A stretch of DNA of 63,975 nucleotides, filler included, from Klebsormidium nitens (lineage: Eukaryota > Plantae > Klebsormidiophyceae): the NCBI GenBank assembly GCA_000708835.1. It is 6 parts of 6 records of this genome, joined end to end, with 100 filler letters (N's around TTAATTAATTAA, not from the genome) between each part and the next. Parts side by side here need not be neighbours in the genome. Positions count along the whole stretch, not along the records: positions 1 to 17,160 come from DF237972.1; positions 17,261 to 48,629 come from DF237760.1; 4 more parts are not named here. One strand, given 5' to 3'. Positions within the stretch are counted from its first letter, which is position 1. Each line of letters begins with the position of its first letter. Shown here in pieces: positions 819 to 62,585 of this stretch. The notes beneath the pieces were generated by a model. That model had not been told where the DNA came from and made no database searches. It was given only the letters and a program-made list of their open reading frames with translations. The position numbers and the translations under genes were made by a program.

Positions 819-3800
819 ATGCAGTCAGTCCCGCTGCAAACCTCCCACTTCCTTGGCCAGCAACGTCTGGTGCGCACTGCAAGCCTTTTGCGCTCATCCG
901 GCGGGCCTGGTCAATCTGCCGGGGGCCATCTCGCTGGTGTGGGGATCAATGCAGCTGCCACCGCAGGCCGTGCTCGCGTCAGCATGAGCTCAGCGGTGGA
1001 GAAGGTTGACGTGGCCATCATTGGCGGGGGCCCCGGCGGCCTCGCCACGGCCAAGGGGATCACCCGGGCGTGCCCGGAGCTGAAAGTGCGCGTGTTTGAA
1101 CGGGCCAAGCTGCGGCCGAGGGGCGCGTCGGTATTCGTGATGCCGAATGGGATGCACGCTTTGGAGGTGAGCCCTCGATGCATCTGTTACCAGCTCAACT
1201 GATCGGTTGGAGGTTTCTGGTTTGAGTCATGCTGGGTCACAGGTCCTTAATTTAAGGAATGCTTGACCAAAGTCTTACTGACCTTGGTTATCAAGAAACC
1301 CTGCCCCACTAGATACGTTTGACCTTCCTCCTTCTTTGATTCCTCTCTTGTCTCAGAGGGACATTTCTGGTTTGCAGCCGTATTTCTTCTCAGTGCGCAC
1401 TTTTATGAGCTCAAGTCCTTCAACGCACGAGATCAGCCTGCGCCTCCATGTGTGCTAGGAGTGAGAACCATAGTGTTGTTGACTGGCTTCATTGGGTTAC
1501 AATGATGCAAGTGGTTCTTCGGAGCAAGGGCGTTCCTGCTGCATCCAATCAAGTGACGCGAGCTGCAAACCCTGGCGGATAAGACAGACAGCCCAAAACC
1601 CCTGCGTTCACCAAGGTTCCTCTCAATAAAGCTTCCCATGATTCACAGCTTTTCATTGGATCGGCACCTGCTTCTGCGTTTGGACCGCTGCTTTTCATGC
1701 AGCCTAGTTGTTACAGACGCCGACTGAATGATTCACAATCTTTGCGCCCGGACCGCCACTTTTCACTCAGCCTGGCTGCTACGGCTGCTGACTGAAATTC
1801 ATGGTGTTAATACCTTCAGGCCCTCGATCCCGAGACCCACGCAAGAGTCTTGGCGCATCACTCGCCGGCAGGTGCGACAGTCACGCGCAATATGGCCGGG
1901 GAGGTCATAGGCGAAGCGGGGGGCGACTCAGTGGCGGCGCCGTTTGCTTCGTATGGTCCGTGCGCGTACCTGCTGTGGGCGTCGCTGCAAAAGGCCCTGG
2001 CAGGTACGTACCCTCTTTGCCTTTGAAAGTACGAGGCATCTTTCATTGTTGTGCGCACCCTCCAGGGCCAAGCGGGAGAACAAAGAAATGAGCGAAGTGG
2101 ATATAACAAGCAGATCAGCGAGCAACAACCTGAAAAATGAACGCAAGAACGTGGTCAAATTTCAGAAGCAAAGACTGCGTGTTACCTGAGTTGGCACACT
2201 CCTGGAGCACCCAAGCCGGGTCGATCAACAATGGTTTCAACTAAGAGTGTCCAAGAGTAGGATTCGCTGCTGTCTTTAGAGGCTGACCAAAGTTTTAGTC
2301 CTGGCAACCCCGGTTATGTCCTGGAAAGCAGCAATCGGACTTGGTCAGTGTCTCCTAGCCCAGTTGCCTAACCCCGTTTTTTGGGTTGGATCTGGACCGT
2401 TGGGATGTTCAGTTGCCTAGAACGAGTGGAGCCTTCACCGCGGTGCCTGATTGATCCAACACCCGATGGCCCCCATCACTGCGCGATGAAAAAGCTCTTC
2501 TCTTTTCAAAGGATGAGAGTGACCCGCCTCTGGACCATTCCCCCAGACTCTCTGCCGGAGGGGGTCCTCGAAACGGAGGTGCGTCTGGGGGACTCGCCCC
2601 CCCGGGACGAAGGGGACCATGTCAGACTGCAAATAGTCTCTGCTGGTAGGAGACCGGACGGAGCGGCGGCGAAGGAGATCGAGGCGCGGGTTAGTATCCA
2701 AATCATTGTCCTGATATTCCAAATGCCAGACTCCAAACTCCATGGGCACAATTCCTGACTACAAACCGCAAACTCTTAATAGCTAACTCCAATTTTCAAA
2801 TGGCAAACTACTTCAACTCCAAACGGCGAATTGCCTGCTGCTCGTGGTAGTTGAACGACTGCGAAGCAGTGGTTTACCAGATTCTGCCTAGTTCCTTCTA
2901 CGGGGAGAGCGCACAACCCGGTGTCAGATTTCGAGCCCTTGCTTGGCAGAGCGCCAATCATAATGAGTATGAGAGTCGAATCACCTCACCGTCGCCTTTT
3001 AGATTGGTCGCCGGACCAGATACGTACCTCTGACTATCTTTGTCAACCCCGCCGCTCTTCTGCTGCACCCGGCCATACCAGGAGCTCATGCTGTTCGACC
3101 GGGATGGAATGAAACCGTCAGCAGCTGGCACAACGGTGGAGATACGGGAGACGTTTACGGGAAAACGCCAGCTGTCTTGTCCCGGGCACTCTTACTGAGT
3201 GGCGGTCCCACTTGTCTTTGCCGCAGGTTGTGGTCGGGGCGGATGGCAACCAGTCGCAGCTGCGGCAGCACATTTTGGGCGACGGCCCGTCCAGTTCCAT
3301 GGGCGTCGGGCTGTTCCGGGCACTTCTCCCGAGGCCCGAGAAGTGGATCGCACCAAACTCAGCCACTATCTGGGCAGGCAAGTAAACCGGGCGCTTTTTG
3401 GGCAGGCGAGTAACTGAAAGAGTTTCGGAGCCACCGTTGAGGGTCAAACACAATCCTCGTAAGTTTTTCAGGATATGAGAGAGAGCGTCGGACAGTTCCG
3501 GGCACTTATCCGAAGGCCCGAGAAGTAGATCGCGCCGATTTCAACCACCGTCGGGGGACTTTTGCCTGCCCAGGTGGTGTTTAGGCCCTCAGCCACTACC
3601 TATGCAGGCAAGTAAACTCAGCCCCTTTTTGGGCAGGCAAGGAAATGGCCATGAATGTTTTTGGTCCACGGCTGAGGGTCTAGACACAACAACCCTACGT
3701 TATTATGGATATGAGACAGCTCCTCCGGTCACTTCTCCCGAGGCCCGAAAAGTGGATCGCACCGAATTCAGCCACTATCTGGGCAGGCAAGTAACTCGAC

Positions 3801-6800
3801 TACTTTCTTTTGGGTCGGCAAGCGCATGGCCGGGGAGCAATCGTCCCACCATCCATCAGGGCCTAAACACAATTCTCGTGCGTCGATAAGGATATGGCGT
3901 TCGACGAGATTTCGTTTAGACGGGTTGCTGGGCCGTTCGGGGCACTTCTTCCGACGGCCGAGATATTGATCGCACCCAACTCAGCCACTATCTGGGCAGG
4001 CAAGTAAAGTCGGCCACTTTTGGGCAGGCAAGCGACTGGCTAAGTAGAATTGTGGTCCTACCGGTGAGAGGGTCGAAACACAGCAATGTACGCTGTTTAT
4101 GAGGATATGAGACAGAGCGTTGGGCTGTTCCGCGCACTTCTCCCCAGCTCTGAGACGAGAATCGCACCGAACTTAGCCACCATCAGGGCAGGCAAGTAAC
4201 CCAGCCACTAAGTATGAAGGCAAGTAAAGTCATCCACTTTCTGGGAAGGCAACTTGTAAAGTCAGCCACTTTTGTGCAGGCAGGTACAATTAGCTACTAT
4301 TTGGGCAGGCAAGAAAACATGGCCACTTTTGGGCAGGCAAGTGAATGGCCGGGAGCGTCTGATTCCGCCGCTTAGGGCCTGAATGGTTTTCTCATACATT
4401 GGTGAGGGTGCGATCCTCGACCAAAGTCGTTTACACAGAGCGTCCGGCCGTTCCGGGCACTTCTCCCAGGGCCCAAAAATAACAAACGCCCCGGATTCAG
4501 CCACTATCTGAGATCAAGACAAGTGTATGGCCTAGGAGTATTTCAAGGTCCCACCGTTGAGGGCTTGGTAATACTGCTCGTACGTTAGTGAAGATGTACC
4601 GCTCGACCAGACTTCTTCAGCGCAAAACCTTGGCTATTATGAGCTCATCATCACAGGAAGCGTTTCCCTTCAACCACGATTGGTTGAAGAACATCGAACC
4701 AGACATGAACCACGGTTGCTTGGTAGCAAGGCAGTTGACCAACCACAAACCAAGCTTGATTGACGCTGATCTCGTCCTGTGTCGCGCCCGTACAGGCCCT
4801 AAGCAGGCTTTCCGTACGGCCGTCTTTCAAGGAGACGTCGCCACGTGGACGGGGATCGTGCCGTGGCCGGCAGAGGAGGAGCACCTGCTACAGGGGCGGG
4901 CGTACATCGCAGGTGAGGGCGAACTAGGATGCCGACAAACTAGGATGGCGTTTGGCTACGGGCCTCTTTTCGTGCGGATTCAGGGGCTTTCTTTTCGAGG
5001 AATTCTTTATACGTACTCTGGTACATCCCATGTCACTTCAGAGGCAATTGGATCAAGAGAGGCGTCCGAGAGACAAGGTGGGGTTAGCAGGGCGGTTAGA
5101 TTAGGTTCGTGTGCGGAGCGCGAAAACTCCGGGTATGGGGATTCTCGTTAAGTGCCCGGGAAACGCCAACCCTAATTTTACCGTTAGTGAAACCCGCTCC
5201 AAACGGTTTCGAAGCACTTTCCCAACCGGGGTCTGACCCGGGCCCCTCTTCCATTACCACAGCAAACGACGCCGGCGAGGGCACACGGTCTGCGCCGAAG
5301 GAGCGCTGCCTCCGGGCGTTCGAAACCGCCTCGGACGCCCTCTTTTTGTTTGCCTTCTTTCTTGTCCCGCTAGGTATAATTGCGGTCCATTTTCCGGTCT
5401 TCGAAACACTTTCTTAACCCTTTTCCATCTTCCTTAACCGCAGCAAACGACGCTGGCGAGGGCGCGCGGTTCTCGCCAAAAGAGCGCTGCCTCCGGGCGT
5501 TCGAGCACTGGCCGGACGCCGTCCGCGGAATCATCGCGGCCACGGACGCGGACTCGATCCTGGTCCACGGACAGAATTACAGGTGCGGTTTTCATCAAGC
5601 GAGAGCCTCAGACGTACTCGAGACCCCTTGTTTTGGGTGTACTTCTTTTCTTGAAGTGCTGGGACCGAAGTCACCTAATTGCGCTGCGCCGATGCGTGGA
5701 TTTGGGCGGTGATGGAATGTAGCGTTCCCTGAAAGGAGGCCGGACAAAAACAACGTCGCAATGCTATAATTGAAGACGAAACTGGAAGAATTTGAACAAA
5801 ATCAACGAAGACAAGAAGTATTCAAATAGAGCGGGCGAATGATACAGTCATTACGAATCTTCTTTTAATAGAACCTATTTCTTTAGTGGGAGGTGCCGTC
5901 GAAAAGCTGTGAAGCGACTGCCGCTGCGAATTGCGTGGAGAGGGGGAATATCGAGCGCTAAAACATCGAATTCAAAAAACCTTGAAAGAAGATAATAATA
6001 CGGTAACTGCATTGGGAAGAGTCAGATTAGGGTGGGGGTTAGGGTGGGGTGGGGTGCGGAGTAGGTTCTTACTTCGCTTCGTTTTTCCGTGTTAGTGCCC
6101 AGGATTTTCTTACTATCTCTGTCTCTTGAGTTTCATTCTAACACCGGCCTGTCCCTAGCACTCCAGCTTACGTCAGCTCGAACACGGTCTTTGGCCCCGA
6201 CGACCGTCTCGAAATCAAGGCACGGCTTCCCGCGCTGAGCAAACAGTTTCGAAATTCTCCCAGTTTGAAAACGGGTTGAATCGTTGCAGGGACCCGGACC
6301 GGTGCACCGTTTGGGGCCGCGGGAGGGCGACCCTCGTGGGCGACGCAGCGCACTTGGGGACGCCCCTTTTGGGCCAGGGGACCAGCCAGGCGTTGGAGGA
6401 CGCCCTTGAGCTCAGTAGGTGAGGAACGCAAAGCGCAAACGCGCCCGAAGGTGCGGCTACTGCGGCAGATTGGTTGTAAATGTAACAGTAGGTCTCAATC
6501 CTGAAACCGGCAGAAAGTAGGTTTGGTCTGGCAGATTCTTTGTAAGCTACGTAAAAGTAGTGCACAATCGGGCAGAGTCCACGTTGAAGAAGTAGCTAGA
6601 AGCAATTCTGCTCTGAAGTTTGGCAGATTCTTGGAGATGACGGAGTGGATTCGAGTGTAGATTCCTTGTAGCGGTGGGATCTTGCGAATAACCCTTCGAA
6701 CAAGCATGCTGCTCTGAATCATGCCGTGTAAGGGTTTCGAATTGTCTCGATCAGGAATGAGTCACGGCTGTGTTGAGTTCCAGATCGCTGCCCAGGGGAC

Positions 6801-7230
6801 ACGTGGGGTGGGTTTGGAGGTTTAGGAATTATATGGGCGCGTCGAGGTGGAGCATGTTCACTTCTGGTTCGGGTTCCATTCCAGTGAAGACCGGGGATTC
6901 CGAGATCGGTCAACATGACAGGCCTAACTCAACGTTAATCTGAGACCTGTAGTGTTTCGGCAAGGCCCGACAACTCTGTCGGACGTGCAATCGCACCAGA
7001 GCCGGCCGTCCGTTCCGCCCAGGTGCATCCACGCCCACGGTGCGACTTCCAGCGCGCTGCGCGCCTACGAGCGCGCGCGGCAGCCGCTCGCGCAGCCGAT
7101 CCAGGCCATCAGCGTGGACCTCTTCAAGCGCTTCCAAGCGGGGGAGAGCTTCCCCCCCGACAACGAGGCGCGGCTCAGCATTGAGCACGGCTTCGTCGCG
7201 CGCTCGTTTCGCCCTCTTCCGGTGGCTTGA
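819..7230 (+). CDS. FAD-dependent monooxygenase (salicylate-hydroxylase / zeaxanthin-epoxidase-like superfamily), probable organellar transit peptide; 8 exons
   Basis: Phase-consistent exons: 819-1166, 1820-2003, 2547-2689, 3227-3377, 4796-4912, 5444-5582, 6290-6418, 7023-7230. The spliced protein has the three family motifs: VAIIGGGPGGL (GxGxxG), VVVGADG (DG) and GRATLVGDAAHLGTPLLGQGTSQALEDALEL (GD), then ALRAYERAR. An alternative start is ATG 984; the 819 start adds an S/R-rich leader. Substrate unknown. Confidence 0.9.
3480..4540 (+). repeat. Intronic tandem array of about 5 decayed copies (roughly 190-320 bp apart) of the exon-4 3' end plus its GC donor
   Basis: The motif CCGGGCACTTCTCCCGAGGCCCGAGAAGTGGATCGCACC...CAGCCACTATCTGGGCAGGCAAGTA lies in the exon at about 3316. 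Variants recur at about 3498, 3725, 3938, 4130 and 4453. Confidence 0.9.
5245..5340 (+). repeat. Partial duplicate of the exon-6 acceptor and 5' half (pseudo-exon)
   Basis: CACAG|CAAACGACGCCGGCGAGGGCACACGGTCTGCGCCGAAGGAGCGCTGCCTCCGGGCGTTCGAA (5263) matches CGCAG|CAAACGACGCTGGCGAGGGCGCGCGGTTCTCGCCAAAAGAGCGCTGCCTCCGGGCGTTCGAG (5444). Confidence 0.9.
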
Positions 7231-7315
7231 CAGCGGCGTTCCGCCCAGCGGCGCGTTCCGCCCTCTGCCTATGGCTTGACAGCGGAGCGTTCCGGCCTCC
7301 GCCCTGGCTTGTACA
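7205..7315 (+). repeat. Short tandem duplications of the stop-codon region of the monooxygenase
   Basis: CGCCCTCTTCCGGTGGCTTGACAGCGG is followed by CGCCCTCTGCCTATGGCTTGACAGCGG and a third, more decayed copy, CGCCCTGGCTTG. Confidence 0.8.
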
Positions 7316-8767
7316 TACTAGAAAAGGGTGTCGAACGGCATTCGATCAACTTGCATTAGGAGACGAGTGCGCTTTTCAGATGGACATTGAAGTCGAAAAC
7401 TGATTGGAAGTTCGGGTAGGCGTTGAAGTCAAAAAGGCATTCGCAAATGATTGGGTTTCGAAGTGTGCATTAAAGTCAAAAGGCGTGTGAAGACAATGGT
7501 AATAGTTTTGCAGGGTTGCGTTACTGTCAAAGATTTTTCGACCTGTGCAGCGACGAGGCTGTAATCTTCGGCGGAAAGCCCTTCTGCCGAGCCTCGGAGT
7601 GACTGCGTTCGACTCAGATTCTAGGACCGAATGGTCGTTTGGAAACAGACACTTAATCTTTAAGTAGTCTCCTGAAAGAGAGAACATGTACCTCATATGT
7701 TCCATTTAAAAGATGAACGATCCGAGTCGTTACCTAACATGCGCATATGTAACGAGAGTGTTTTAGTGCTTCTTAGAAACTTAGAAGATTAAACAGTCAC
7801 TGGCCAAAAACTTGAGCTTTGATTCACATCGACACAATATTGTGCCCGCCAACATCGCCACTGACGTACGTCGGCGGACCCGGCGGTGCAACGTATCTTT
7901 CTTTGATCATGCAATGTGCTTTTTCTGCATGATGAATACGTACGAGAGTGACAAAGCGCCGCGGCGGCTTTGAAGTTCGTTCGTGTTCGTTTTGTGCACA
8001 TTCGTAAAGGTAGGAATCCATTTAGCGCGCCGCCCAAGGGGCATCGCTAATTTGGTGACCATATGTACGTATAAAGAGGCCATTAGCGTTCAGAGACGTC
8101 ATGCAGCTTGCCAGTTGATTTGTATTGAGCGTTGTGCATGATCATGAGTTCAATGCGCCGTACGGTCGAGTCCATCACTGATATATGTATGGTAGCCGCA
8201 TATCACCTAGATAGTAATTCTCGCCGCGATACACGTACATGTGATTTCACATGTGGAACTTAGACCAACAAGTTGTTTCCAACAATGATGCTGATAACAA
8301 AGCTTAAAGCTACTAGTAAGCTAGGCAGGCTGGATCTCAACTTACGATCCAGTCTATACGCTGAAATTGCATATATGCAGATTTGGGCGGCATATACTGT
8401 ATAATAGGACATGCGCCGGCTGCGCTCATGTGCAATAACTTAGTAGCCTAGCTAGATAGTCTTCAGACGTGGTCCGACCGTACGAAGCGGGCGGTTCATC
8501 TTCAAGGCTTGCCAATTTGCCACCGTCATGCGCGCAGAGCTATGCCGATGAGCTGGTGCGCTCATATAGCCTATACACAACATCCCATTCATTTCGCTAT
8601 ACTAACAGGCTTCCGCAAAGTCATATCCATTCATGTCGATTTGACTCCGAACCTCTTGAAATGTATGCTGATTAGGGAATCATTCCATATGCGTGCACAC
8701 GCATGCATATGCTCGCTTTGAGGTGAAAGTCTTCAATCAGAGCAGAAACTGATACTAAACTTGGAGC

Positions 8768-9152
8768 CAGAGGGCGCAGACGCCCAGCCAAAATATGTAG
8801 CGTCCAGTAGCGGGCAGCCCGTATGGGCTCCACCGCGGGCGCGTCCACGAAACTTTGCAGACGTCTTATATGGCCTGTTGGCTACCATTTCCACCCATTT
8901 TCGGGTCAGCTCACCGGGGAGCCCTCAGTGTCAAGGACGAAGTGAACCTATGTCTGACTTTCCCAGCTAAAATGGAAAATCTGGGCAATAAAAAGGACCG
9001 GTGGAATGTCGCCCAAAAATGGCGGAAACTTGTAGAGAACGTTTTGGGACCTAGCCAAGACGTTTTGACCTTGTGGGCGGTTTGGATATGATGATTCCGC
9101 CCGCTTACATTTCTGCTCGCGCCAACATTTTGGCTGGCGTCTGCGCCCTCTG
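8768..9152. mobile_element. Non-autonomous hAT-type MITE (385 bp)
   Basis: Terminal inverted repeat (TIR) CAGAGGGCGCAGACGCC is perfect for 17 bp, then continues imperfectly (AGCCAAAAT). Identical 8-bp TSD CTTGGAGC at 8760-8767 and 9153-9160. An 8-bp TSD with CAG termini is typical of hAT elements. Confidence 0.9.
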
Positions 9153-9505
9153 CTTGGAGCGTCAAGACAAGGAATCCGTTGAGACTCGGAGCTAGGCAAG
9201 CCGCATGTCAGCTTGCGTCCGACCAACATCAAGCTGCACGCCGCCGTTGCATACGAGCCAATTGCAGAGGTACTCTTGACGGGTCATGTGCACATCAGTG
9301 CAATGTTTAACTAGATTCAAAGCAACCACCAATAGGCCGCGGGTCCGACCACACCAAGGTCACTCCTATACATTATGAAATGTCTTCCTATATTACGTAG
9401 GGCTAAGCTTCTAGTTTGCAGGCCTTAATTACAGTCCAATGGACCGTCGGTACAACCGACGTCCCTAAGTACACTTCTGTGTTTGCAACTTGAGCCGCGC
9501 CTCAA

Positions 9506-11541
9506 TCAGCTATCGAAGCCCGTCTCCTGACTCGTTTCAATCTTCCCTTCCTCCTGCTGATCCAAGATCTTGGCAACAATTCGCTCCTCGACTTGCTCTG
9601 TGAGCCGTGCAATCGCAGGCGTAGCGCCATACATGCCGATGATGCACAACCCCTGTTTGTACATGTTGCGCTCCCAGTTCAGTACCCAGCGCGAGTACTC
9701 CTGCCGCCGAAACAGGTCCGGTTCGACCTGTAAGGGTGACGTATGACTGATATCAGCAACCGAGTCTGGTGGTTGTTGACTTCTTCCATGTTAGATCCCT
9801 AAGCAGTGCTAGGCCCTGTCTTTGGTAGGCACGCAGGTGTGCACTGCTCTCCCTTTCAGAAGTGGGTAAACCTGCGCTGTCCACAAGAGCTAACACACTT
9901 CGATTCATATGCAGATCGTGGAAACTTCGGTTACGAGACCTTCATCGAGTCCGCAGAGTCTTGCGCTTTGTCGAAGCGGCTGCCCGTTTCCGGAGGTGCA
10001 CGGCCCTTGTAATACAGGCCGCGCTCCCAATTCGTACCCAGCGATCATAATTCTGCCGCCGAACAACGTTCGCTTCGACCTACCGAAACTCTTTGAGAGC
10101 TGAAGAGAAGGTTTCAAGGACTTCACATAATGCAATCGAAAGCTGACCTCCTGCGAAGCCTTGCAGGCAGCATAAAGTACGTCCCTGCCAAGCAGACTTT
10201 CTGGAGACCGGTTCTAGCGGGTTTCGAAGATGGTCGGGAACAGGCTCTAACCAAGCGTTCAATCGGACCGTTTGTCGCCGAAGCACCAGACAGGCTTTAG
10301 GAGTGATAATCTAGATTTGAGTTGGGTGCCTGTCGTCTGGAACCACAGTCACTTCGAACCACTGAACTTCTATTTTGGCATCCGGTATTCTGACCAGCGA
10401 CAAGAGAGCCAAGCAGCATGACCTTTCCTTTGTCCTCAACCTTCCTGCCGAAGATAGGTCCTTGTCTGAAGTGTTTTGCCGTGGCAAAAGCGGGGAGGAC
10501 TATATCGCACACTCTCTCCTCCCCTCTTACTCAATCAAGCGCTTGGTACGGACACCAAGTTTGATTAAGCGAAACGGAGACTCGACTAAAAAGAGCTTCG
10601 TAACAGAGTGAAGCCTTTACTGACTCACCGCTTTGACGTGAAACTCCATGAGTTCTGGGTAGCTTTGCATGGCGAACTTCGTTTCCTTGAGATCCGTCCG
10701 CCACCGGTGGATCATCCCCCCCACAAACCCAAACGTTGCTCCGCCCTGCAAACGAAAGACGCACATGTTCGTTGATCGGAAGTCTTGAGGTGTCCGTAAG
10801 CAGAGTCGTGAACCACTGTCGAATGTGTGGACGCAAGGTCAAAAGCCAGATTTCGAGTTGTAAAGATAGATATTGATCGCATTTCTTTTGAGAGGAAACC
10901 TTCTTTAGCTTTCTGAAGGAGATCACGGACGTTTGAGTTGAATGTCTCACTAAAGCTCAATCTCGAAGATTCTATTCTTCGAGCCTAGATTAACTCCGAC
11001 TGGATCTGAGCCGTGTATTAGCAGGATTTATGGACCGCATATAGTGGTCTGCCAAAAGAAAGTCTGCACATCGAAGTGGGACCGTAGAAACACCCCCTCT
11101 AAACATGACTACTGAAGGCCTCTGACGAGGTGCGGCGCTTTTGACTTCCCTAAAAACCTACGAGGACGAAAGGGCATGTATTGGACTACAGCATCATGGT
11201 CCTTTTAAGATTCAGGGGATCGACCACACTGACTTGTGTATGTTAAGGGAATCACGGAAAGCGATACGCTCTGTGTTGAAGGCGCAAGTGATACGACCTC
11301 TGAAATACTTTATCCTCAGAGAGGTATTGCGACGACCAGTCCTACAGCTGATGTACCGAAGCTGGGCAAGGAAAAACGGTGCTTAAGTGTGGTCTCGGGA
11401 GGACGAGCTACTGGGGATGCTCGCCAGAAACGGCAGTCCTGGTCCAAGCAACATCATGCTGACCGCCCCAAAGCAGAAGGAAGCGGCGACAGAAACCTGC
11501 ATGAGCGCCATTCCATCCATAAGACGGGCCTGATCCAGAAG
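9506..11541 (-). CDS. Hypothetical membrane protein (5' end unresolved)
   Basis: Phase-0 exons 10745-10629 (GGATFGFVGGMIHRWRTDLKETKFAMQSYPELMEFHVKA) and 9727-9506 (VEPDLFRRQEYSRWVLNWERNMYKQGLC...GFDS*) have canonical AG/GT boundaries. A probable upstream exon 11541-11464 (LLDQARLMDGMALMQVSVAASFCFGA) completes a hydrophobic helix. No family recognised. Confidence 0.6.
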
Positions 11542-13738
11542 CTGCTTCAAGGAGATCCACGGATTAAGTGTTGACGAAAGTTGCTTGTTTCAGACACCAG
11601 GAAGCTACTCAGGACTTGACGGTAAGCTAAAAGGGTCATCTGCTCTGAAAGTTGAGGAAGCTATGCGCGGATATTGACAGGAAGGCTTTGGACTTGGAAA
11701 ATCAACTTTCAACACTGAATGGGGCCAAGCGTCCAAGCTTTCTGGCGCGGTTGAGGTGCAATTTCTTTCCAATGAAGCTAGTACATACCTCAAAAGCTTA
11801 TTGAAATGATCTCAAGTAGAGAACTGTAGAACGACCAGACTCAGGTTTTGATTAGACACATGAGCAGAACTAAAATCGATAGATGCACGAAAAAGGCACC
11901 TTCGAATAAGATAGTCTTAGAATTGTCCAATTCGTGCAGATCTAGTGAAGGGTGTGATGCTACCACAAGTAGCTCTGTGGTGAACATCAACGCTGACTGT
12001 AGTTTGCGAAGTTTGAAGAACGCAGCAAGTACGTCACGGCCCCTGAAGTTCCTGCTAGACCCTATAGAAAGTGACTCAAGTCCCTCTTCACAACAATCGT
12101 TTTCTGCACGTTCGCTAGCTTCACTTTACGCTCCTTCTGCGCACATTCCAGCTGAACGGAAGGTACTTGCTTAAGCCAAGCCAACAGTCGGAGAGAACAG
12201 GGCCTTACAGTGATGCTCTTGACCATAAAGAGCCCCTGTCCAGGCGTCAGCGACTTGGAGGCTCCAAGGATGTTGAGCAAGCTGCATAGATCGAATAGAC
12301 AGCTTAGGATAATGGCGGTTGAAGGTGACATGGCACGTCCGCGGCCGTATGATTGCTGCAAAAGCAACGGAACAGTAAAAGGAACTTCTCTGTGATTATT
12401 GAAGTCTGCAAGTGTGGGACGACGGTGGCGCCCAATTTTTCGGTGACCTTGCCTTGACTTGACAAAAGGAGACCTCTTGAGTCCGGAGCATCCGCCAAAA
12501 TTTGTGCTTAGGCATAACCAACTGCCAGCTCTCTGCCCCATCTCCTTGTCAGGTTGGCGGTGCAATCGCAGAATCCACCTTAATATGCAGTATGTGGGGT
12601 TCTCATACAAAGGACATCATGTATGACGTGTTAATTTGCAAGCTCAGAAGAAGGGCCCAAAGGAGCTTCTCAAGGAGGGGGACTTTTTGAAGAGCTGACT
12701 TACTTCATGCTGCCCCCAGGGCCCTGACTCTGGTACTCCTGATACAGGCTGGAATTTGCAGCCATTGTGTCCTCTCTAGGCAAGTCAATGCAGGTTTGTA
12801 CAGAACAGTGCGAAATTAAAATGCTGCAGTGTTCTCAATGTGCCAGCATCGGACCACTGAAAAGTCAGCCTAGAATCCAGCAGAGGCGTGTTGTAGAGAC
12901 GGCTGCTTGACATTGCATACGCTCTCCCACGCTCCGACCTTACCATATGAATGACCAGAATTGCAGGATGCAGCTTGTAAGTAAACAATGCTGCAGTGTC
13001 CTGCAGCATTCAACCTTCCTAAATGAGTCTGCGCAATTCTGCTCGGCTTTCATGGACCTTGTTATGGGACAAGACACTGTGACTCAGGCTGGGCTCTTTG
13101 CTGGTTCAGCAGCTCCCCAGCTACCTTCCACTTGTTTGCTTTCAAGAGCACCTCCGCACATTGTAATTTGTGGTTCACAGGGACCTGAACTTCAAGAAGA
13201 ACTTTCAAAGAGGTGCAGAAGGTGTGTAGATCCGTATTCCTCGAACGGATCGGTGCGATAGCCGAAGCAAATGAGATTGACGGCGTCTCTCACGTCACTC
13301 GCTGAGTTGATCAAATGCCCTTTGGCCACCAAGTGCGGGACGAAAATTATACAAGGGTACTTCCGTTGGAACAAACGTCAGGCACATGTGCCGGCCTTCT
13401 GGCAAGTCTTATTCCGTGTACTGCGCCGATGAAAATTCCTTCTGCTCAGGTTCTGTACATACCGGTAGTTCTCGTGCTCTCTCCAGCAGAACCCAATTGA
13501 AACGTTTGCAAGCATAAGAGGGAGGCGGGCAGAAGCAGCCTTCACGTAGCTGGAAGTACCGGTATTCGTGATCCTACTTAGGAGTACCAGCATATGCAGC
13601 TTGCTGAGGGAGTTTCGCTTCGGGTCAAGATTGCTGGCACGGACTACTCCCTGAGGGCGTTAGACGGTCAACTCACACTTTTGAAAGGGACAAACCCTGC
13701 ACGAATTGTTGTTGGAAGTGTTTCGATTTTAGTGAACC

Positions 13739-16663: not shown

Positions 16664-16987
16664 TAGCTACCATGGGACACTTTAACTCCTATTAAATTCC
16701 CCCCGATACGGCCTCAGTTATGGCAGATTGTGCTACTTGAGTTGACAAGATATGAGTTTGCCAAATGCAGCACATACAATCAGCACCAAGCGGGTCAGCG
16801 GCATGCGGTCATTGCGTCCTCAACGATGTTCTCTTCTTCTCTGTCAAAGCGCCGTATAGCGACATGCATGGGGCATATAGGCCCATAGTACCAATGAGCC
16901 ACATAAACGCGCTTGCTTCCTTCAAGGAAGGCAATCTCCAGTTGGCTTGCTCGCTTGCTCGTTGTTGAACGATTCAGTGCGACTTTG

Positions 16988-17160
16988 AGGGATCCCTCTG
17001 CAGAGTCCAGACCCATATTCGACCAGACCGGACTCGTTGCAGTTGGCCGGCGCTCGCTCTAGATGCTCTCCGAGGGATCCCTCTGCAGACCCATTATTCG
17101 ACTATAGACGGGACCCGTTAATTCGCATTTGGCGCTCGCTCTAGATGCTCGCTGCTTAGG
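16988..17160. repeat. Imperfect two-copy direct repeat (about 85 bp unit) abutting an assembly gap
   Basis: GAGGGATCCCTCTGCAGA...GGCGCTCGCTCTAGATGCTC occurs twice in tandem. Confidence 0.75.
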
Positions 17161-17260
17161 NNNNNNNNNNNNNNNNNNNNNNNNNNNNNNNNNNNNNNNN
17201 NNNNTTAATTAATTAANNNNNNNNNNNNNNNNNNNNNNNNNNNNNNNNNNNNNNNNNNNN
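17161..17260. other. Scaffold gap (100 bp, N run with artificial TTAATTAATTAA six-frame stop spacer)
   Basis: The same construct occurs at 48630-48729, 52033-52132, 55639-55738 and 62254-62353. A plain N gap lies at 49733-49841. Confidence 0.97.
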
Positions 17261-17333
17261 TGCGAACGCCCCCATACGCGCGCGGACAATATACTGGGAC
17301 GAGTTCGATATGAAGATTCATAGACTCGAATCG

Positions 17334-17615
17334 TCACACGAATGGAGTCTGGTATAAGCTGGCGTTGCACTTCTGCAGCTGAAGGGGAGGGTTGGGATGG
17401 AAAAGGGGGTTGACCAAGCTTGTGTTGTCGCGAAAGAAAGCATTGAGTGGACCAGGATCAGGCAGACTAGTGTTCCCTTCCACTTCCACATAAGCAATCA
17501 CCACCTGAAGGGTAATGTTGGCTGCTTCACCTCTGTTCAAGGCGAGTGCTGCAACCATGATCAGAATAGCAACCCTGAACAAAACACACCCCGGTGGCAC
17601 CTTCGGATCTGCCAT
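17334..17615 (-). CDS. Possible secreted or membrane protein N-terminus (may continue into the gap)
   Basis: MADPKVPPGCVLFRVAILIMVAALALNRGEAA has a signal-peptide-like hydrophobic core and an AxA-like cleavage site, followed by NxT/S sequons (NIT, NTS, NAS). Confidence 0.4.
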   Translation of the reverse strand: MADPKVPPGCVLFRVAILIMVAALALNRGEAANITLQVVIAYVEVEGNTSLPDPGPLNAFFRDNTSLVNPLFHPNPPLQLQKCNASLYQTPFV

Positions 17616-21500: not shown

Positions 21501-24500
21501 GCTCCGCTTAAAGACTGTAAAATCATTCAAAGCTTCGCCGCTTGAAGGCCATGTCTTCAACCAGGGACCGGATGCAAGACCATTCAAGTGGCGTCCCGGG
21601 ACTACCAGCTGAGTGCAAGATTTTGCGAAGGTAGCGCGTACGACGGTTGGAAGGGACCGGAGTTAAGGGAAGCGGATTCAGGAACCCAACTTGGTGGCGA
21701 AATTGAGGGCAACACATTGATTAAATTAAACGCCGCCTGGTTCTGCTTGATCTCTTACTCACAGCAGTTTGCCTTGATTCTAGCAGCAACACATACGCTC
21801 AATAAATTTCAGTTTAGCGACAGAACATGTCAGACAAAGTTTAAAAGGCGCTCTTCCAAGCCGGGGGCCTCACCGATGAGCAGCTGCGCCTCCCCCTGCT
21901 TCAGCAGCTTCTGCGCCTCTGTGTGCTCCACGATCGCGCTCATCGCCGCGTCGCGCTCGCGCCGAAGCAGCTGCAAAAGGACCACGCGCGCGAAACGTCA
22001 GCGAGTGGTAACGTGGCGGCCGTGTGCGGCCGAGCTTAGTCTCGTGAAAAGGTGGTGATACTCTTCAATTATCACATGAGTTCGAGACTACTCTTTCAAT
22101 GAAAGTGTTATTCAAGCCAACCTTGATCGCGCGCAATTGGCAAGTTCCAAAGGCAATCTGCACAATCTACAGTGGAAAGGTATCTACAAATCGAAACTAA
22201 GCGCTTTATCCCCAAAGCCTTACTGTCTTCCATGATTACCAATCCGTCGCAGCTTTTTGTACAGCTTCAACTGGGGTATGCAAAGCTGGGCAATCCTCCT
22301 CCTCTAGTTGACAGCACGCGTCTGGCCTGACTTCTGAATACGTCAGCACCGGCAAACGCGTTCCGGCCGAAGATCATGTTTCGTCACCCGCCACCTCACC
22401 TCCAGCAGTTCGTCCCGCTCTTTGGTCACGCCCGCGAGGTCCGCCGCGAGCCGCGCGTTTTCCTCGCGCAGCGCGTGTTCCTCGCGGCCGGCCGCCTCTA
22501 AACCCGTCTTGGCCTCCAGAAACTGCGCGGTCAGCTGGCGCACCATCGCGTTGTAAACGCTGTGTTGCTCCGCCAGGCTGGCCTCGCTCTGCGCACGAGA
22601 CGAGCAGGTGACGTCAGCGAAGAGGGACTGGCGTCAGCACACAGAGATGATTCCAAAAATTGCGCGGTCAGCTGGCGCACCATCGCGCTGTACACGCTGT
22701 GCTGCTTCGCGAGCTAGCTTCGCTCTGCGCGTGCGACGACGTGGTAATGTCAGAAAGTGCGTGGATACGTGAACAAACTGAGGCGACGTGTCTTTCTCGT
22801 TTGCAACGCGCTCCAGAAAACCACGCAGTGTGCATCGCCAATCCACCGAGCCCTCGCCTCCCTTGTGTGCAGTAGAACTGGTGACGTGAGCCAGAGATAC
22901 TTTTCAGAGAGACGATTTTCGTTTCCGCGATTGTCCCTGAGCTTCCGCGTTTCCAATGCTCTTGTTTACTTTTCCCTTCAGCAAGGGACAGTCTCTGAAA
23001 GCCTCCTTAATGAATGAAGGTCTGCAGAACGTCAGAGCACACTAGAACGGTCAACCATGACGGCGACGTCTCACCTCTTGCAATCGCCTTTTGGTCGCCT
23101 GCAGCTCCTGATAGAAGTGCTGCACTTGTTCCCGGCTTGCTTCGACCTCCTGGAAAGAGAAGAAGGTACTGTGTGTAAGTGCTTCGCGGACCGCAATTGT
23201 TTTTCGGACTGCTTTCAAGAACGTCTTGGCACCACAAATACTCTGATATGGTTTCCTGACTGCCGAAAATTCAATGGTACTGGAAATGGACTCCAGACTC
23301 CACTCTATTTCCAATTTCCAGAACCGATGCCTATGTCGGAAGTAGGAAGAAATTCCACGCTGGTGAGCTTGATCCTACTGCTTTCTCTCATATTCTCTTC
23401 TGCATGCATTCAAGAGCACAGAATCCAACTAATCTTCGAAGCGACATGACCTGCTCTGTTTGCGAGCAAGTCCGCAAAATGATATTAGCGACTCTCAACG
23501 AACGCGTGTCCACGAGAAGAAGACTGAGCGCTGTCAAGCCGTACCTCTGTCAGAGTTGCCGCCATGTCCGCGTCGCACTTGCGGTCCCGCCCGCCGTACG
23601 TCCAGAAGCGCGTCCCGGACGCTTCCTGCGGACGCTTCGACGGCGAGACGTGAGAGCCGCTGGTGGAGGGGTTCCCGGGGCCCCGCTGGGGGGACGGTTG
23701 CCGGACCGCGCTGTACGGCCTACGGGCAAAAAACGATGATCTTGTTAGAAACGGGGCCTTACCAGTTCAGCCAAACGGAGCGATCGCAAAGATGCGCGCG
23801 CTGAACGTTACTTTTAAATACTCTGGCGCATGATTTGATGCTGAACAAAGAGCGTACTGACGCAAAAGACGGTGCATGAGACGGAGCCTCACTTTGTCAA
23901 ATGCAGAATCCAATCTCTGGTACACTTGGACCTTCAGCTCGAAGCCAAAACAACCGGCAGATTGACATTGGCATCTTCTTTGCAATCATGGTACTTTTTT
24001 TGGTGATTGTCCCCGCATCAATTTGGTCGGAGGATCTCGCCTCACGCCTCCAATTACTCACGGGGGATGGTGCCCGGCGGTCGCCACCAGCGCGGCCCCC
24101 CGGGGGCTGTCCTTCCTGTCGCGGGGGCTCGCCAGCGCGCGCGCGTTTCTGGCGCTCCTCAGGGAGTCGCTTGGTGACTCTTGCCGGGCGTCCGCAATGC
24201 GCGCCTCGCGCTCGCGCTCTTTGACCCAGTCGCTAATGACGCTGGTCTTCCGCTGCCCGGTTTTGTCGTCCGTATACTTTAAGGCTTGGCTTGAGATGTG
24301 GGGGAGGTCCGGGGTTTGGAGGTTTCGGAGGGTTTGGCGCGGAGACGTCGCGAGGGCGCCCGCCGGGGCGTGCTCGGTAGAAGAGAGGCCCGTCGTCTCG
24401 GAGATGTACTGCACGAGTTGCAAGTGATAACCGTCTCAGAACGGTAGGAGAAAGAAAAGGGGCTCCCGAGGCGGATTGCCTGGGGGCCCCCCGCCAATAC

Positions 24501-33100: not shown

Positions 33101-36100
33101 CGCGCCTCGCTGACGTCAGCCGTTCGTCAGCGGCCATTTTCGACGAGATCCGCGGCGGGGGGGACATTCTCGTGAAGCACCCGTACCACAGCTTCGTGAC
33201 CAGCACGCAGGCGTTCTTCGAGGCGGCGGCGCGGGACCCCGCGGTCGTGGCAATCAAGGCGATCCTGTACAAGACGAGCGCCAACAGCCCCGTCGTGCAG
33301 GCGCTCGTGGCGGCCGCCGAGGCGGGAAAGCAGGTGGGTGCGACGCTTATGAAGCAGGGACCATTGCTAGTTCTCAGCAGCTGTGAAAGAATTTGGAGTT
33401 GCACCAGTGTCCGCTAACCGAGAGAACAAGCTGGGAAGGCTGGAAGGCGAGCTGGCTGACGTCATTTGCCTATGTTTGCCTCCGCATCAGCCTGCCATAC
33501 TGTTCACCGCGTTGCTTATATACCTCCTCCACGCAACAAGTCTGCTGGGGTGCCTATCATTGTTTCTTTGTTGGTCTTATTTGTGGTTGTGAAAGGCAGA
33601 AAGGTTTTCGAGTCTGTGAAGGAAGAGTTCCATTTGCATTCGGACATCTTTTCATCACACTCCACAGCTCCGTAAAGTCCTGGCACATGATGGATTCGAC
33701 CATTCTGTAGGTGACGGTTCTGGTCGAGCTGAAGGCCCGCTGCGAGGAGGCCCGCAACATCAACATCGCGGAAATGCTGGAAGACGCGGGCTGCAACGTG
33801 GCCTACGGTCTGGTCGGCCTCACGACGCACGCCAAAGCCAGCATGGTGGTCCGGCAAGAAGGGTCCGAGCACAACACGTACGTCCACGTGGGGACCGGGG
33901 ACTACAACGTCCGCCAGGCTGCGGCATACTCTGACGTCAGCCTCTTCAGGTTAGGACCCCGGTGGTAATGAGAGACAGGTAAACTTTTTCAAGTGTACAA
34001 CGCTTGTTATTGCATCTGTTTTTGAACCATGAATTGACCAGAACCTGATCTATCTTCCAACCAATAAGATAGATGCATTTGGCAAACTCCTCGGTCGACG
34101 CGCTCCTCAGCTCCATGTGTCAAACCCCGTCACCTCTGCCCGTAGCCGACACGTACTCCTCATGAGGTTCTAGTTTTTGACTTACTCAGAAACCGCTCCG
34201 TCTATAGAGCAGCCATTCTAAGCAAGCGACTTAGCTGTATGATCCGGCATTAACCAGCTCAGTTGTTTAACCCGGCAATAACAAGGTCCGTTATTTAACC
34301 GCATTTTCTCCCCGCTGCTGCAGCTGCGACCCGGAGCTGGGCCGCGACGTGTCCGACTTCTTCAAGTACCTGACAGGGTACCACCGCCAGAAGCGGTACC
34401 ACTCGCTGCTGATCGCGCCGCACAGCATGCACCAGCAGCTGATCCGCCTGTGCGACACCGAGATCGAGAATGCGCGCAAGGGCCTCCCGGCGGGGATCAC
34501 CATCAAGTGCAACGCGCTGGACGATCGGGTAAGGAGCTGAATCTAAAAGCAGGGAGACGGCGTCTCCTCACGTGGCTCTGCACACGCAGCCTGTGAGATG
34601 GTACTAGTGCGTGACCGTGTGCATTAGTGGGCGATTGCTAGAGCCAGAGCCTCAGCTAATACGTTTGCTTAGTAGGACCGGTTCTCCCGCCCTCTTCAAA
34701 GCCCTAATGGCAGATATGACGGACAGTCCAGTGGCCGCTGGGCGTTCTGCAGGCAGACGTCGGGTCTGCTTTGAAGGGGCCGCGTCTGGCAGGCTTGCCT
34801 GTTGCAACGTATAGTGGAGTTTGATGTTTCCGAAGAGATGGCGTCTGATTGGGCATTGATCGGGGCTAGTGTGGACGCGTTTATCGTTGTGAACTTCATG
34901 AAGGAAAAGAGATTCTCCTTACGGCGATGGAAGATTGCCAAAACGTTGTCGCTGAGCAAACCCTTCTTTTGCAGGTCCTGTGCGCGAGATTGTACGCAGC
35001 ATCGGCTGCTGGGGTGAAGGTCAACCTCATCGTGCAAGGCATCTGCCGGATCCGGCCCGGCGTTCCTGGAATCAGGTGACTGATTAGTTCACACCCAATA
35101 GGAAAAGCACAATCCATCTAGCCTGCAGTAGGGACGCGTATCTTCCGAGCTCTCAAAATACACGAGGTTCAACAGAGTCCTCACTGTGCTCGCTCGCCCT
35201 CTCGGCAATCTGGAACTTCTCTCAAGAAAGTTGACGCACTCTTGGTTGCTTGCGCGCATCTCGCTGGAGTTCGTTCTAGTTTCACACCCTTCCCGATCAC
35301 TTTACTTGCTTCGACCATCCGGCGCGTTGCGTGCATTTTGCTTGTTTTCGCGATCATTTTTCTTACATGGAACATCGTGGGACTCCCTGGAGCACAGTCG
35401 CGTGAAGCGTTGCGAGTTCTGGGGCGACCACGCTTGCGTTTGTTATCATTCCCAGTCGCGCACTTGCTATTTATAGTACTTGCTCCCCCCCTGCAGTGAA
35501 AATATTCGAGTTGTAAGCATCGTGGGCCGTTTCTTGGAGCACAGCCGCGTGATGCGCTTCGAGAACGGCGGCGACCCGCGATTCTACCTCTCCTCCGGGA
35601 ACTGCACCACCCGGGACCTCACGCGCCGCGTCGAGCTGGCGCTGCTCGTCAAGGACGACAAGTGCAAACAGGAGCTACAGGTACGGCTGTGAAAAGGCTC
35701 GGTATTTCTCTTTCTGATATATACCGTGTTTATGGTTATGAAGATATTAATCAGGACGGCAATTGCAGTCAGGAGCTGCAGGTACCGCCGCAAACAGTGT
35801 TCGTATCCGCAATCTTTTGTTAAGCCGTGCCTACAGTCTTGAAGATATTGTCGAAGGATGACAAGTGCGAACAAGGGCTGCACTTACGGCTTGGAAACGT
35901 TTCTGTATTTGTGCTTGTCCTTGTTGGCCGAGCTCATAGTCATCAAAGGTCGCGATGAAGATCTGCGAATGCTTTTGAATAATATCAGGAGCGTCTGGGG
36001 TCCCGCCTTGATGTCATTTCCGTCAGGTTCAAACGTGGCTAGTTAAAGTGCTTCGCTATGCTGGCTTTCGTCCATTCGGGGTTCTATCTCAAGTAGGCGG

Positions 36101-36518
36101 TCTTTCGACAACAGCAGTCTCTTCTTTCCCTCGGATACTAGATCCAAAGCCGTTGCCATCTTAACGGGCACCCTTTTGTCGCCGTTTTCAGATGCTTTAG
36201 TTCCGCAATTTCTTTCCTGTAAACGGCGTGTTCTCCATCAGCTTATCCGATGTGTATCGTCCGCAGGACGTTTTGGACCTCTGCTTGAGCGACCGCCGCA
36301 CCGCCTGGGAGATGCGCCCCGACGGTCTGTACAGTCTGCCCGCGCCTAGTAACGACACGACCGGTAGTCATGCAACCGGGACGAGAGACGCCCGCCTGGC
36401 CGCGATTGGGCTGCAAGCCGCGCTGATGGAGGACCTTCTGAAAGAGCGGGAAAAGGCCAGGAAAGTCGAGAAGTTGAAGATCAAGGCCACCGCGGGGGGC
36501 AAAAGGGATAGAGTTTAG
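30135..36518 (+). CDS. ppk1: Polyphosphate kinase 1 homolog (bacterial type), probable plastid transit peptide, divergent active site; 9 exons
   Basis: Phase-consistent exons: 30135-30880, 31219-31443, 31824-32469, 32989-33333, 33711-33949, 34324-34528, 34975-35075, 35497-35680, 36267-36518. Motifs: [26 protein letters not shown]...[65 protein letters not shown]. Confidence 0.93.
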
Positions 36519-37985
36519 TGGTTGAAGTATTGTTTATGGAGAGCACGTGGTAAATAGATGGATGATAGATAGATAGAGCGCGAGGTGCGGTGCAAGTGTA
36601 CAGCTTAATAACGCCATTGCGAAACCGTAGCTTGACATTGCCGATAGAAGTTAGCCTAGTCAAAGAGGGGCGACTGTGTCGGTTTACACAATTGCTTGAG
36701 CGTGTCTGTATGATGATTGTTCCGAGACTTCGTAGGAGTCTTCTACAACTGCTCGAGTAGGCCAGCTAGGCAGGTTGTAGTCGAGGCGCTGGTAGGATAG
36801 GGTTAGCATTTGAATCCGAAAAGGGGGGGGGAATTGTGTGGCATCAAGAGAGCTAGAACCTAGTCAGGGTAGATAGATACAGATTCGATATCATGTTCTT
36901 GAACATTGCTTGAGACCAACAAACTTCCAGACCTTGTGTTTATACTTGCTGACTTCAAACCAACTGAACCAAATTCAAGTCAGCGATTCTGCATGCTGGA
37001 CAATATGGTACACCATATCCGAAATCTACCGGTGTGAGTACGTCCGCCACCAAAATGCTGGCCGGGCTAGGTCAGTATTCAAGGCCACATATGGCGCGCT
37101 TGGCTCTGGCAGGCTAATGTTGAAGATCAAGTTGTTGGTCCAGGTTTATATATGATCATGGCTGCGCGCGGCGGTCGCGCTCTTTAGCCGCGCCCGGCCT
37201 ATCTGCTGGTGATTACGCGTAAAGCTTGATCTAGTCAGGAGTCAAATGGTACAGAATGACGTATGCGTCCAACTCATGGGTGGCCAGCTAAGCCATGGCA
37301 CGTGTGGCATGCCATGGCGTACCTAGTTCATTGCTGACTCGATGATGGGCTGCCGCTAAGGCCTTAAGCCCAAATGTGCAAGCTATCATGATCGACCCAT
37401 GGATCGACCCGGCCTTGAGTTCGCGAGGATAGTCACTTACAAATTGGTGATAAGACCCCATGTCACACATGTGAAACCGCTGCCGCCACATGTTTCTCAA
37501 GACATCTTCAGCAAGACGTGCATGTATATAAGCAGGCTCGATTAGCTTTCACTGCGGGAGGCTGAGCCATGGTAATCCGCAATGCAGTGTGAATGACGCG
37601 TTTGCCCAGCCGGTGGCTTATCGGTGGTTGTCGGCCCTCATGCTAGGCCGCTGTGGCCGAATTTAGGCCAAGCCCCACGATGGGCCTTTGGCACTGGTCA
37701 ACTCACAAGCATATTGCATCTATGAAGATCGGTCAAGTGCATACCAGTACCTCGCAAGCCCGAATCTGATCTGCTTTGTCCCTTCCCGGGAAGTGAATGA
37801 TTGAAGGTGACAGAGGGCAAGCAGCACCCTGTTTGCCTGATTAGACGCTTCAGGAAATCCTTCTGAATCATCACCGCACTCTCGTGACATAATCATAGAA
37901 TAACTCACCACTTAAAAGCAAAAAGGCTTCGACTAAAGAGCCCTGTCCAAGTACCGGCTGCAGAGGAGAAGTTTCTAGGCTGTCC

Positions 37986-46100: not shown

Positions 46101-47913
46101 GCTGACGTCATGAAAGCGCTTTGAAGCTTTCCAAGAGTGCTTTTGGAGTCGGCATTCTTGGAATATAGATTGTTTGAAAAATGGAAGACTCGGCAGTCTT
46201 GGACAAAAAAGTCAGCCATGCGGGCTGCAAAGAAATCAATGGTCATCTCTTGCAGTTTACACCTTGGCTGCTGGCAGGGTTTCGCCGTTTTTAAATACCT
46301 TACCTTACTCGATCTCCCTTCTTCAGTAAGCCAGCGGTTCTAGTATCTTCAAAATTGTCCGCAGTTCAGGTTCACTACGTAGCAGCAAACCGTATTACGT
46401 CTGTAACCCCGCCGTCCAGGCGTCGTCCAGGGTTAGCCTCCTCAGTAGAATTGTACCGCAATCTACTTCCATTTATTGCTCATTCAATTCTTGTGATATC
46501 TGCCAGGTGGCGTCACAGGAGGGCACGTACCTGGCCAAGGCACTGAACCACATGGCCGAGCGGAACATTGTACCGGAAGGACCAATGCGGATAAGGGGCG
46601 AGGGGCGCCACTTGTGCCACCCGTTCAGGTGCGCGGACCGTCCCGTTTTGACTGCTCCCCTCCGCTTCGACAGTTCCGTTCCGTTTCCACAGCTCCGTGT
46701 ACTCCGCTGCCGAAAGTATCTCCAAAGTGGTCCAGAAACGACCAGTGGAAAAGTCGGAACCAAGACGATCAAAAACGTATGATATCACATATGATGTAAT
46801 AACTGCTCCTCCAAAGCCACCCCGGTTTGGATTTTCTGGTCAGACCATTGAAGTGAGTTATTGGCGTGTTTTAAATGATAAGGGGCGGCAGTGTCTGATT
46901 GGCCTGAGGTTTGGCGTTCACTCACAGAGTCGTGGTCTCGATCTTCCAGAAGTTCAAGGTAGAGTCGTTCGTCCAGTCGTAGAACGTTGACGTCCAAGAA
47001 CGCGCCCGTCGTGAATCTCTGTGGCCGTTGGGTTGCTTGAGAACCAGGTACGTCGAGGGCAGATGTCACCAAGCTTGGTAGAAGAGCCTGCTATCAGGTA
47101 CAGACACCCAACAAACCTGTTAATTCCTTTCCTGCTCAGGTACAAGCACTTCGGGCAGTTCACGACACTGGGCGGCGGGGAGGCGTCCGTGGAGCTGCCC
47201 GGGGACTGGGTCAGCTCCGGGCGGAGCACCATGTGGCTCTGGTACTCGGTGTACGCGAGGTGAGCCCTGACGTCATCCTGGCAGTTTCGTGACGTCTACG
47301 TTTTCAGGCGTATTGGGTTCACCTGACCTGGGGTAGCTTTGGTAGTCGGCCGGTGTGCACATGTGGGAGCTGACGAGTCGTATGATGCTTTTTCGATGAC
47401 GTCTTCAGTATTGTGCCACATGTGCACCATGGCAATTGCATACGGGCTTTGCCCTTATTGGTGACAGAAGTACCCGGCGATGTGACGAAAGAATCTGACA
47501 GCTCATTTCAAAAGACGGTTTCAGCCGCTTCGTTATTCTGGATCGAGTCGGTTGGGCTGGACGCATTGGTGGGTTGAAGCTCCTCGAGCCTGCACCTTTG
47601 CCGGAAGTGTGCACATGGGTGTTAATGACTGTAAGTTCGAGTAGCAAATTGCCTAGGATGCTATATATGGAAACGAAAGCAGCTTCCCGGAGGTTAGGAT
47701 GGCACATCGGTCTTCTCAAGTCGCAGCTCTCGTAGGCCCGCCAGCAGTTCAATGTCTGAGATGCCTTTTTGACGCACCTTTTGAAATCTGCTCAATTTGA
47801 CGTTTTACTTGTTCCTTGGCTGCAGCAAACAAGTGAGTTGGCGTACCCGTTGCCTGGTCGTCATGGATTGGATGAAGGCGGCATTATTTGGTCGAGACTC
47901 GAGCAGAATGTAA
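40146..47913 (+). CDS. NDB: Mitochondrial external alternative (type II) NAD(P)H:ubiquinone oxidoreductase B with EF-hand; 14 exons
   Basis: Phase-consistent exons: 40146-40501, 40912-40935, 41244-41308, 41535-41586, 42206-42280, 42642-42773, 43130-43380, 43890-43934, 44230-44509, 45041-45148, 45733-45882, 46507-46628, 47140-47259, 47826-47913. Motifs: [54 protein letters not shown]-hand [49 protein letters not shown]. Confidence 0.96.
41993..42066. repeat. Near-perfect 37-bp tandem duplication in an NDB intron
   Basis: AACGGTC(A/G)ATGAACTCATGCATATTCAGTTCAGTTGA x2, one mismatch. Confidence 0.95.
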
Positions 47914-61317: not shown

Positions 61318-61362
61318 CCCTATGCCGTGGACACTGGACACAGGCTAGTTATACGCGGACCC

Positions 61363-61918: not shown

Positions 61919-61928
61919 AAATTGCATA

Positions 61929-62253: not shown

Positions 62254-62585
62254 NNNNNNNNNNNNNNNNNNNNNNNNNNNNNNNNNNNNNNNNNNNNTTA
62301 ATTAATTAANNNNNNNNNNNNNNNNNNNNNNNNNNNNNNNNNNNNNNNNNNNNTCTATTTGCCTCTCGCCTGTTGCCCTTGCAATTGAGCTAATGACGTG
62401 GGTGCCACAAGTTTCTCTCTAGATATTTTCAGGGAGACTGCTGGCTTCAAAAAAGAGTTGAACGCATTGCTGAGATGATAAGTCTTTTCTTCTCTTGACC
62501 CCTGCCAGCTCAGGTCTGCTTGCGTCCTTGGGCCACACATCAAACACACACACAGGGTCCACAAATTTGTCTTCGAATTTTGCAG

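What the first reader, a model, noticed from the sequence alone, without database searches (positions are those of the whole stretch)
3290..47150. Window-wide 'junction echoes': introns hold decayed copies of the adjacent exon-intron boundary with strict polarity
In at least five unrelated genes (monooxygenase, the unknown 9.5-11.5 kb gene, the large coiled-coil gene, PPK1, NDB), intron sequence is a degraded copy of the neighbouring exon edge plus its splice site. Acceptor-plus-exon-start copies always lie upstream of the real exon, and exon-end-plus-donor copies always lie downstream (seen in sequence). Tandem duplication across a splice junction predicts this polarity, with one copy kept as exon and the other absorbed into the intron (inference). 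Copies range from near-identical to barely detectable, which suggests an ongoing, frequent process of intron growth and a pool of cryptic splice sites. I do not know of this being described as a genome-wide feature in these algae.
Basis: partly seen in the sequence, partly recalled or inferred. Interest (0 to 1): 0.8.

Follow-up and report, generated by a model that had tools for sequence, protein, structure and literature searches.

The report
Decayed splice-junction copies in algal introns
In the green alga Klebsormidium nitens, 6 of 61 introns hold old side-by-side copies of the neighbouring exon edge and splice site that the assembled RNA skips; they are likely harmless leftovers of local DNA duplication, a known kind of repeat ("mirages" in lancelets), here possibly more frequent at exon edges than chance predicts.

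Summary
Partly confirmed. The window is Klebsormidium nitens. Six of 61 annotated introns, in four genes, hold head-to-tail copies (period 101-353 nt, exon part 72-89% identical) of the adjacent exon edge plus intron flank: four acceptor-type upstream, two donor-type downstream, none of wrong polarity. NDB has only weak candidates. RNA contigs splice at the original sites and cover three echo introns without differences, so these are not assembly errors. The polarity is forced by tandem geometry. The monooxygenase array is star-shaped (one old burst), and the differences fit neutral decay against a constrained exon, so 'ongoing' is not shown. The structure matches lancelet 'mirages' (PMC3087553), human F7 intron 7 (PMC1557585) and a potato case (PMC4974935); this scan noted it before in animal and protist DNA. 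I found no report for algae. One open point: all six duplications of 100 nt or more span a junction, while nine non-junction ones are 32-85 nt (post hoc P 0.001-0.04). Genome-wide frequency could not be tested.

The parts
3227..3377 (+). FAD monooxygenase exon 4; its last ~75 nt are the template of the array; ends at a GC-type donor
   Evidence: RNA joint 3374/4793 in 4 of 4 runs, resolved as GC-AG intron 3378-4795
3481..4620 (+). Donor-type array in monooxygenase intron 4: six further units of about 145-230 nt (exon end + donor + intron start), nested shorter donor repeats (12 donor-like motifs in all) and one inverted donor piece near 3545-3590
   Evidence: exon part 78-89% to the real exon, 68-77% between copies; covered by RNA contigs 3357-4008 and 3979-4822 without differences
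5160..5344 (+). Acceptor-type echo in monooxygenase intron 5 (intron end + AG at 5261-5262 + first ~80 nt of exon 6); period ~185
   Evidence: exon part 83%, intron part 65%; real intron 4913-5443 RNA-supported in 4 of 4 runs
5444..5582 (+). Monooxygenase exon 6 (working copy)
   Evidence: RNA joints
9480..9727 (-). Last exon of the unknown gene (working copy; far end approximate)
   Evidence: RNA joint 9725/10627 in 4 of 4 runs; no Pfam hit
9990..10340 (-). Acceptor-type echo in unknown-gene intron 3; exon-like part 9990-10079, AG kept but pyrimidine tract lost; offset 353; the intron part aligns only at noise level
   Evidence: exon part 72%
22400..22588 (-). Coiled-coil gene (KFL_008110010) exon, working copy
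   Evidence: (1 of 4 runs, low depth)
22646..22790 (-). Acceptor-type echo in coiled-coil gene intron 22589-23074; AG kept (last intron-like base 22725); period ~140
   Evidence: exon part 82%, intron part 70%
35270..35435 (+). Acceptor-type echo in PPK1 intron 7 (core 35368-35433); AG not recognisable; period 145-165
   Evidence: exon part 74%; intron covered by RNA contigs without differences
35469..35469 (+). Likely branch-point A of PPK1 intron 7, downstream of the echo
   Evidence: one contig of run X14 joins 13 letters matching 35457-35469 (last A read as T) to the intron's first base 35076
35497..35680 (+). PPK1 exon 8, flanked by echoes on both sides
   Evidence: RNA joints in 4 of 4 runs; PPK1 relatives
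35746..35950 (+). Two donor-type echoes in PPK1 intron 8, period 101; first keeps GT (35782), second has lost it
   Evidence: contig 35652-36293 without differences
62400..62436 (+). Candidate acceptor-type echo (offset 155) upstream of the exon at 62586; not among the 61 introns
   Evidence: score 36; exon border read from sequence only

Best explanation
These are old head-to-tail duplications of about 100-350 nt that each span one exon-intron border; the copy continuous with the exon is the one spliced, and the spare copy likely decays neutrally inside the intron. Steps: (1) a local tandem duplication covers an exon edge plus its flank (shown; the DNA mechanism, break repair or slippage or unequal exchange, is not determined). 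(2) Only one arrangement leaves the protein intact, so donor copies must lie downstream and acceptor copies upstream (logic). (3) The spliceosome uses the site that restores the original exon (shown in contigs). Spare donors stay silent even when identical, likely by first-come 5' site choice as in human F7; spare acceptors all score lower than the real ones (shown), which may be the condition for survival (inferred). (4) The exon copy is held by selection while the spare drifts (shown by the substitution pattern). (5) Junction copies likely outlast purely intronic ones, because only one partner diverges and because a later collapse through the decayed exon part would damage the gene (inferred). 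Net effect: introns grow by 140-1,140 nt, with no function required.
For: Head-to-tail units with intron flank. Intron-part identity matches twice the exon-part distance in 6 of 6 comparisons within 0.07, though four are at the 0.59 noise level. Monooxygenase array: 49 changes on copy branches, 2 on the exon branch, both silent; copies carry stop-creating changes; 5 indels over 11 copies. Differences by codon position 16/13/25%; silent share 33 of 76 fits neutral echo plus silent exon drift with transition bias (expected 0.39-0.43, p 0.25-0.5). RNA joints only at the original sites; a lariat-type contig places the branch point past the PPK1 echo. Nine non-junction tandem duplications show a general local duplication process. 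Precedents: PMC3087553, PMC1557585, PMC4974935.
Against: All six duplications of 100 nt or more span a junction and none is purely intronic or intergenic, although simulation detects 170-nt intron-intron pairs at 93% or more up to branch length 0.2. Uniform placement with a modest persistence advantage gives P 0.001-0.04 for this, so step 5 or a formation bias is needed, and step 5 is untested. Copy-branch changes in the array are slightly more often silent than expected (19 of 49, p 0.04-0.16). Contigs drop rare isoforms, and 2 joints were not shown.
Confidence: 0.75

Rival explanations
1. Duplications form preferentially at splice junctions (breaks or replication errors linked to exon-intron chromatin borders or co-transcriptional splicing), so echoes record a junction-targeted mutation process.
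For: 6 of 6 long duplications are junction-spanning; periods 101-353 vs 32-85 nt do not overlap (p 0.002). The monooxygenase donor was recopied at several scales, once inverted. PPK1 exon 8 has echoes on both sides.
Against: Size cut is post hoc and the window was selected for the feature. Over all 15 events the excess is weak (expected 2.5-4.3 vs 6; P 0.016-0.29 at persistence 1.25-1.5 across model choices). Retention bias gives the same pattern.
Confidence: 0.12
2. Echoes are exon ends of other alleles, captured by unequal exchange between diverged haplotypes.
For: Raw dS/dN between exon and echo is 2.9 (bootstrap 2.1-4.6); coiled-coil echo has 7 silent and 2 replacement differences.
Against: The excess disappears once transition bias (40 transitions, 33 transversions in intron parts) and silent exon drift are modelled; the array is star-shaped with mostly private changes.
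Confidence: 0.05
3. Echo splice sites are kept as decoys that tune splicing or intron retention.
For: Four of six array units keep an exact copy of the 9-nt donor; unspliced contigs cover monooxygenase intron 4 in 4 of 4 runs and PPK1 introns 7 and 8.
Against: Echo-free introns are also covered by unspliced contigs (PPK1 4 and 5, 15336-16396); contig depth cannot rank parts; one unit and one PPK1 copy lost the donor; no use of echo sites seen.
Confidence: 0.05
4. Assembly artefact or chance similarity.
For: The window is small scaffolds joined by N pads; the NDB candidates are within or near chance.
Against: Copies are 11-28% diverged; contigs from independent studies match three echo introns letter for letter; z 12-46.
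Confidence: 0.02

Closest known systems
Lancelet 'mirages' (Adh3, troponin C, globins BflGb6/BflGb9, PGBD5); PMC3087553 and PMC3902484, passages read
   Same: Tandem duplications of an exon-intron border, on either the 5' or the 3' side; many but not all keep AG/GT; normal splicing; globin units of 150-160 nt overlap this size range.
   Different: Here in a streptophyte alga; copies older (68-89% vs 81-100%), mostly one or two, star-like with no concerted evolution; four of nine neighbouring genes affected.
Human F7 intron 7 37-bp VNTR; PMC1557585, abstract read
   Same: First unit spans the exon-intron border; identical downstream donors stay silent; the most upstream is used. Matches the monooxygenase array.
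   Different: Units here are about 180-230 nt, decayed, and the donor is GC-type.
Potato RdRp gene duplication of intron 3' end plus exon 5' start; PMC4974935, results section read
   Same: Same geometry as the four acceptor echoes, in a plant.
   Different: There both acceptors are used and a new intron arose; here the spare copy is skipped.
Internal gene duplication (Gao & Lynch 2009, not held; seen only as cited in PMC4974935, PMC3087553, PMC3443670) and AGGT-duplication intron gain (PMC3265369, passages)
   Same: Small intragenic duplications are common and touch splice sites.
   Different: The AGGT model duplicates exon sequence only and makes an intron; these copies include existing intron flank and make none.

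Membership tests
Mirage-type junction duplications | Tandem repeat whose unit spans an exon-intron boundary (the published definition) | tested here: met
   six loci, head-to-tail, exon edge plus intron flank; for the unknown gene and PPK1 intron 7 the intron part is at noise level
Mirage-type junction duplications | Either boundary (5' or 3') can be copied; many but not all copies keep AG or GT/GC | tested here: met
   4 acceptor and 2 donor loci; AG kept in 3 of 4; donor dinucleotide kept in 6 of 8 units
Mirage-type junction duplications | Regular splicing is undisturbed | tested here: met
   All six introns spliced at the original sites in contigs; rare isoforms not visible in contigs
Mirage-type junction duplications | Copy-number variation between haplotypes or cells (reported property) | not testable with these tools
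   No second strain or relative found
Actively turning-over minisatellite (not filed here) | Concerted evolution, high identity among units | tested here: not met
   Copies 68-77% to each other, 78-89% to the exon; star shape
Intron gain by AGGT tandem duplication (not filed here) | Duplicate is exon-only and forms the intron's two ends | tested here: not met
   Echoes lie inside introns of 421-1418 nt and include intron flank
Duplicated alternative exons (not filed here) | Whole exon copied with both splice sites, frame kept, used in mRNA | tested here: not met
   Only one edge copied; indels and stops; no wrong-polarity hits; no joints at echo sites listed

The most novel reading that the evidence does not exclude
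In Klebsormidium, duplications of 100-350 nt accumulate specifically at splice junctions genome-wide, in about a tenth of introns and about 8% of intron DNA, because they form there or are locked in once the spare exon edge has decayed. That would be a junction-anchored ratchet of intron growth, and thousands of natural competition tests showing how a streptophyte spliceosome picks the exon-restoring site (spare donors silent by default, spare acceptors weakened).
Probability: 0.3. Interest if true: 0.6.

Novelty: new member of a known kind. Interest (0 to 1): 0.33.

Why it matters
As it stands it extends mirage-type junction duplications to a streptophyte alga and shows them in several neighbouring genes. 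If the junction bias of long duplications holds genome-wide, it gives a measurable route of intron growth and a large natural data set on splice-site choice in the lineage leading to land plants. Practically, such copies can mislead gene prediction and read mapping.

Tried and rejected
Genome-wide test: no genome is held for this window. Relatives' DNA: metagenome scans with P0001 found nothing and with a PPK1 exon only 5 loci at 38-43% identity, not used; genome-contig scans found nothing. Protein search for the coiled-coil exon returned only the K. nitens protein. NDB as an echo gene: best z 3.9, not accepted. A 13-nt match near 39622 that would be wrong-polarity did not reach threshold. Allele capture: not needed. 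Detection bias alone for the lack of long intronic pairs: persistence ratio only 1.23 up to branch length 0.4. Dropped before the count of 15 duplication events: marginal hits with score 32-33 (8319, 27742, 35290, 56762, 59431), the exon-exon match at 32224-33317, the element-like repeats at 61387-61901, and the seventh candidate at 62400. No run is on record as RNA (a guess by the tool); their spliced joints argue they are. NDB, the LHC-like, NAR1-like and last genes were not covered by RNA. Gao & Lynch 2009 could not be read. 'Exon stuttering' gave no listed paper. No supplements were consulted.

Full report
Origin and annotation. A coiled-coil exon retrieves one protein, KFL_008110010 of Klebsormidium nitens, which maps at 100% across 18.6-28.5 kb apart from exon borders. 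The window is several scaffolds joined by N pads. No whole genome was available. Contigs of five public runs from five studies (kind guessed as RNA) gave 12 joints in 600-17150 and 15 listed joints (2 more not shown) in 17270-37200; all resolve to GT-AG, one to GC-AG. With P0001 and open-frame reading I annotated 61 introns in 9 genes, median 441 nt. Gene labels: FAD-binding monooxygenase-like, NDB-like and NAR1-like from Pfam hits plus recalled names; PPK1 from relatives.
Noticed in passing
35076-35517: A contig of run X14 carries a lariat-type junction (branch A 35469, 27 nt before the acceptor); PPK1 intron 7 may persist as lariat RNA.
   Followed up: partly
8768-9152: Short element with ~27-nt terminal inverted repeats; contigs run on into unlike sequence at its ends, so it is likely a multi-copy MITE.
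   Followed up: partly
30134-36518: Expressed, 9-exon polyphosphate kinase 1 with a likely plastid-type N-terminal extension; best relatives of exon 3 are only 49% identical (Mesostigma, unnamed eukaryote transcripts, Caldilineaceae), so it is a divergent copy.
   Followed up: partly
3378-4795: The most amplified junction is the only GC-AG intron among the 61.
   Followed up: no
9480-12900 (-): Well-covered spliced transcript with a long leader and only a ~120-140 aa open frame at its 3' end; no Pfam hit.
   Followed up: partly
28354-28531 (-): The RNA joint (donor at 28353) differs from the annotated first exon of KFL_008110010.
   Followed up: no
7198-7311: Three ~50-nt tandem copies across the monooxygenase stop codon: the same process at a coding end.
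   Followed up: no
61118-62253: Cluster of inverted repeats (31, 76 and 29 nt) beside an assembly gap; likely element ends.
   Followed up: no
62586-63723: Gene with a Walker-A-like motif (read by eye) and no Pfam hit for the first exon.
   Followed up: no
17160-17260, 48630-48729, 52033-52132, 55639-55738, 62254-62353: N pads with an all-frame stop linker join separate scaffolds; 17261-48629 is 31,369 nt, the contig length given for P0001.
   Followed up: yes
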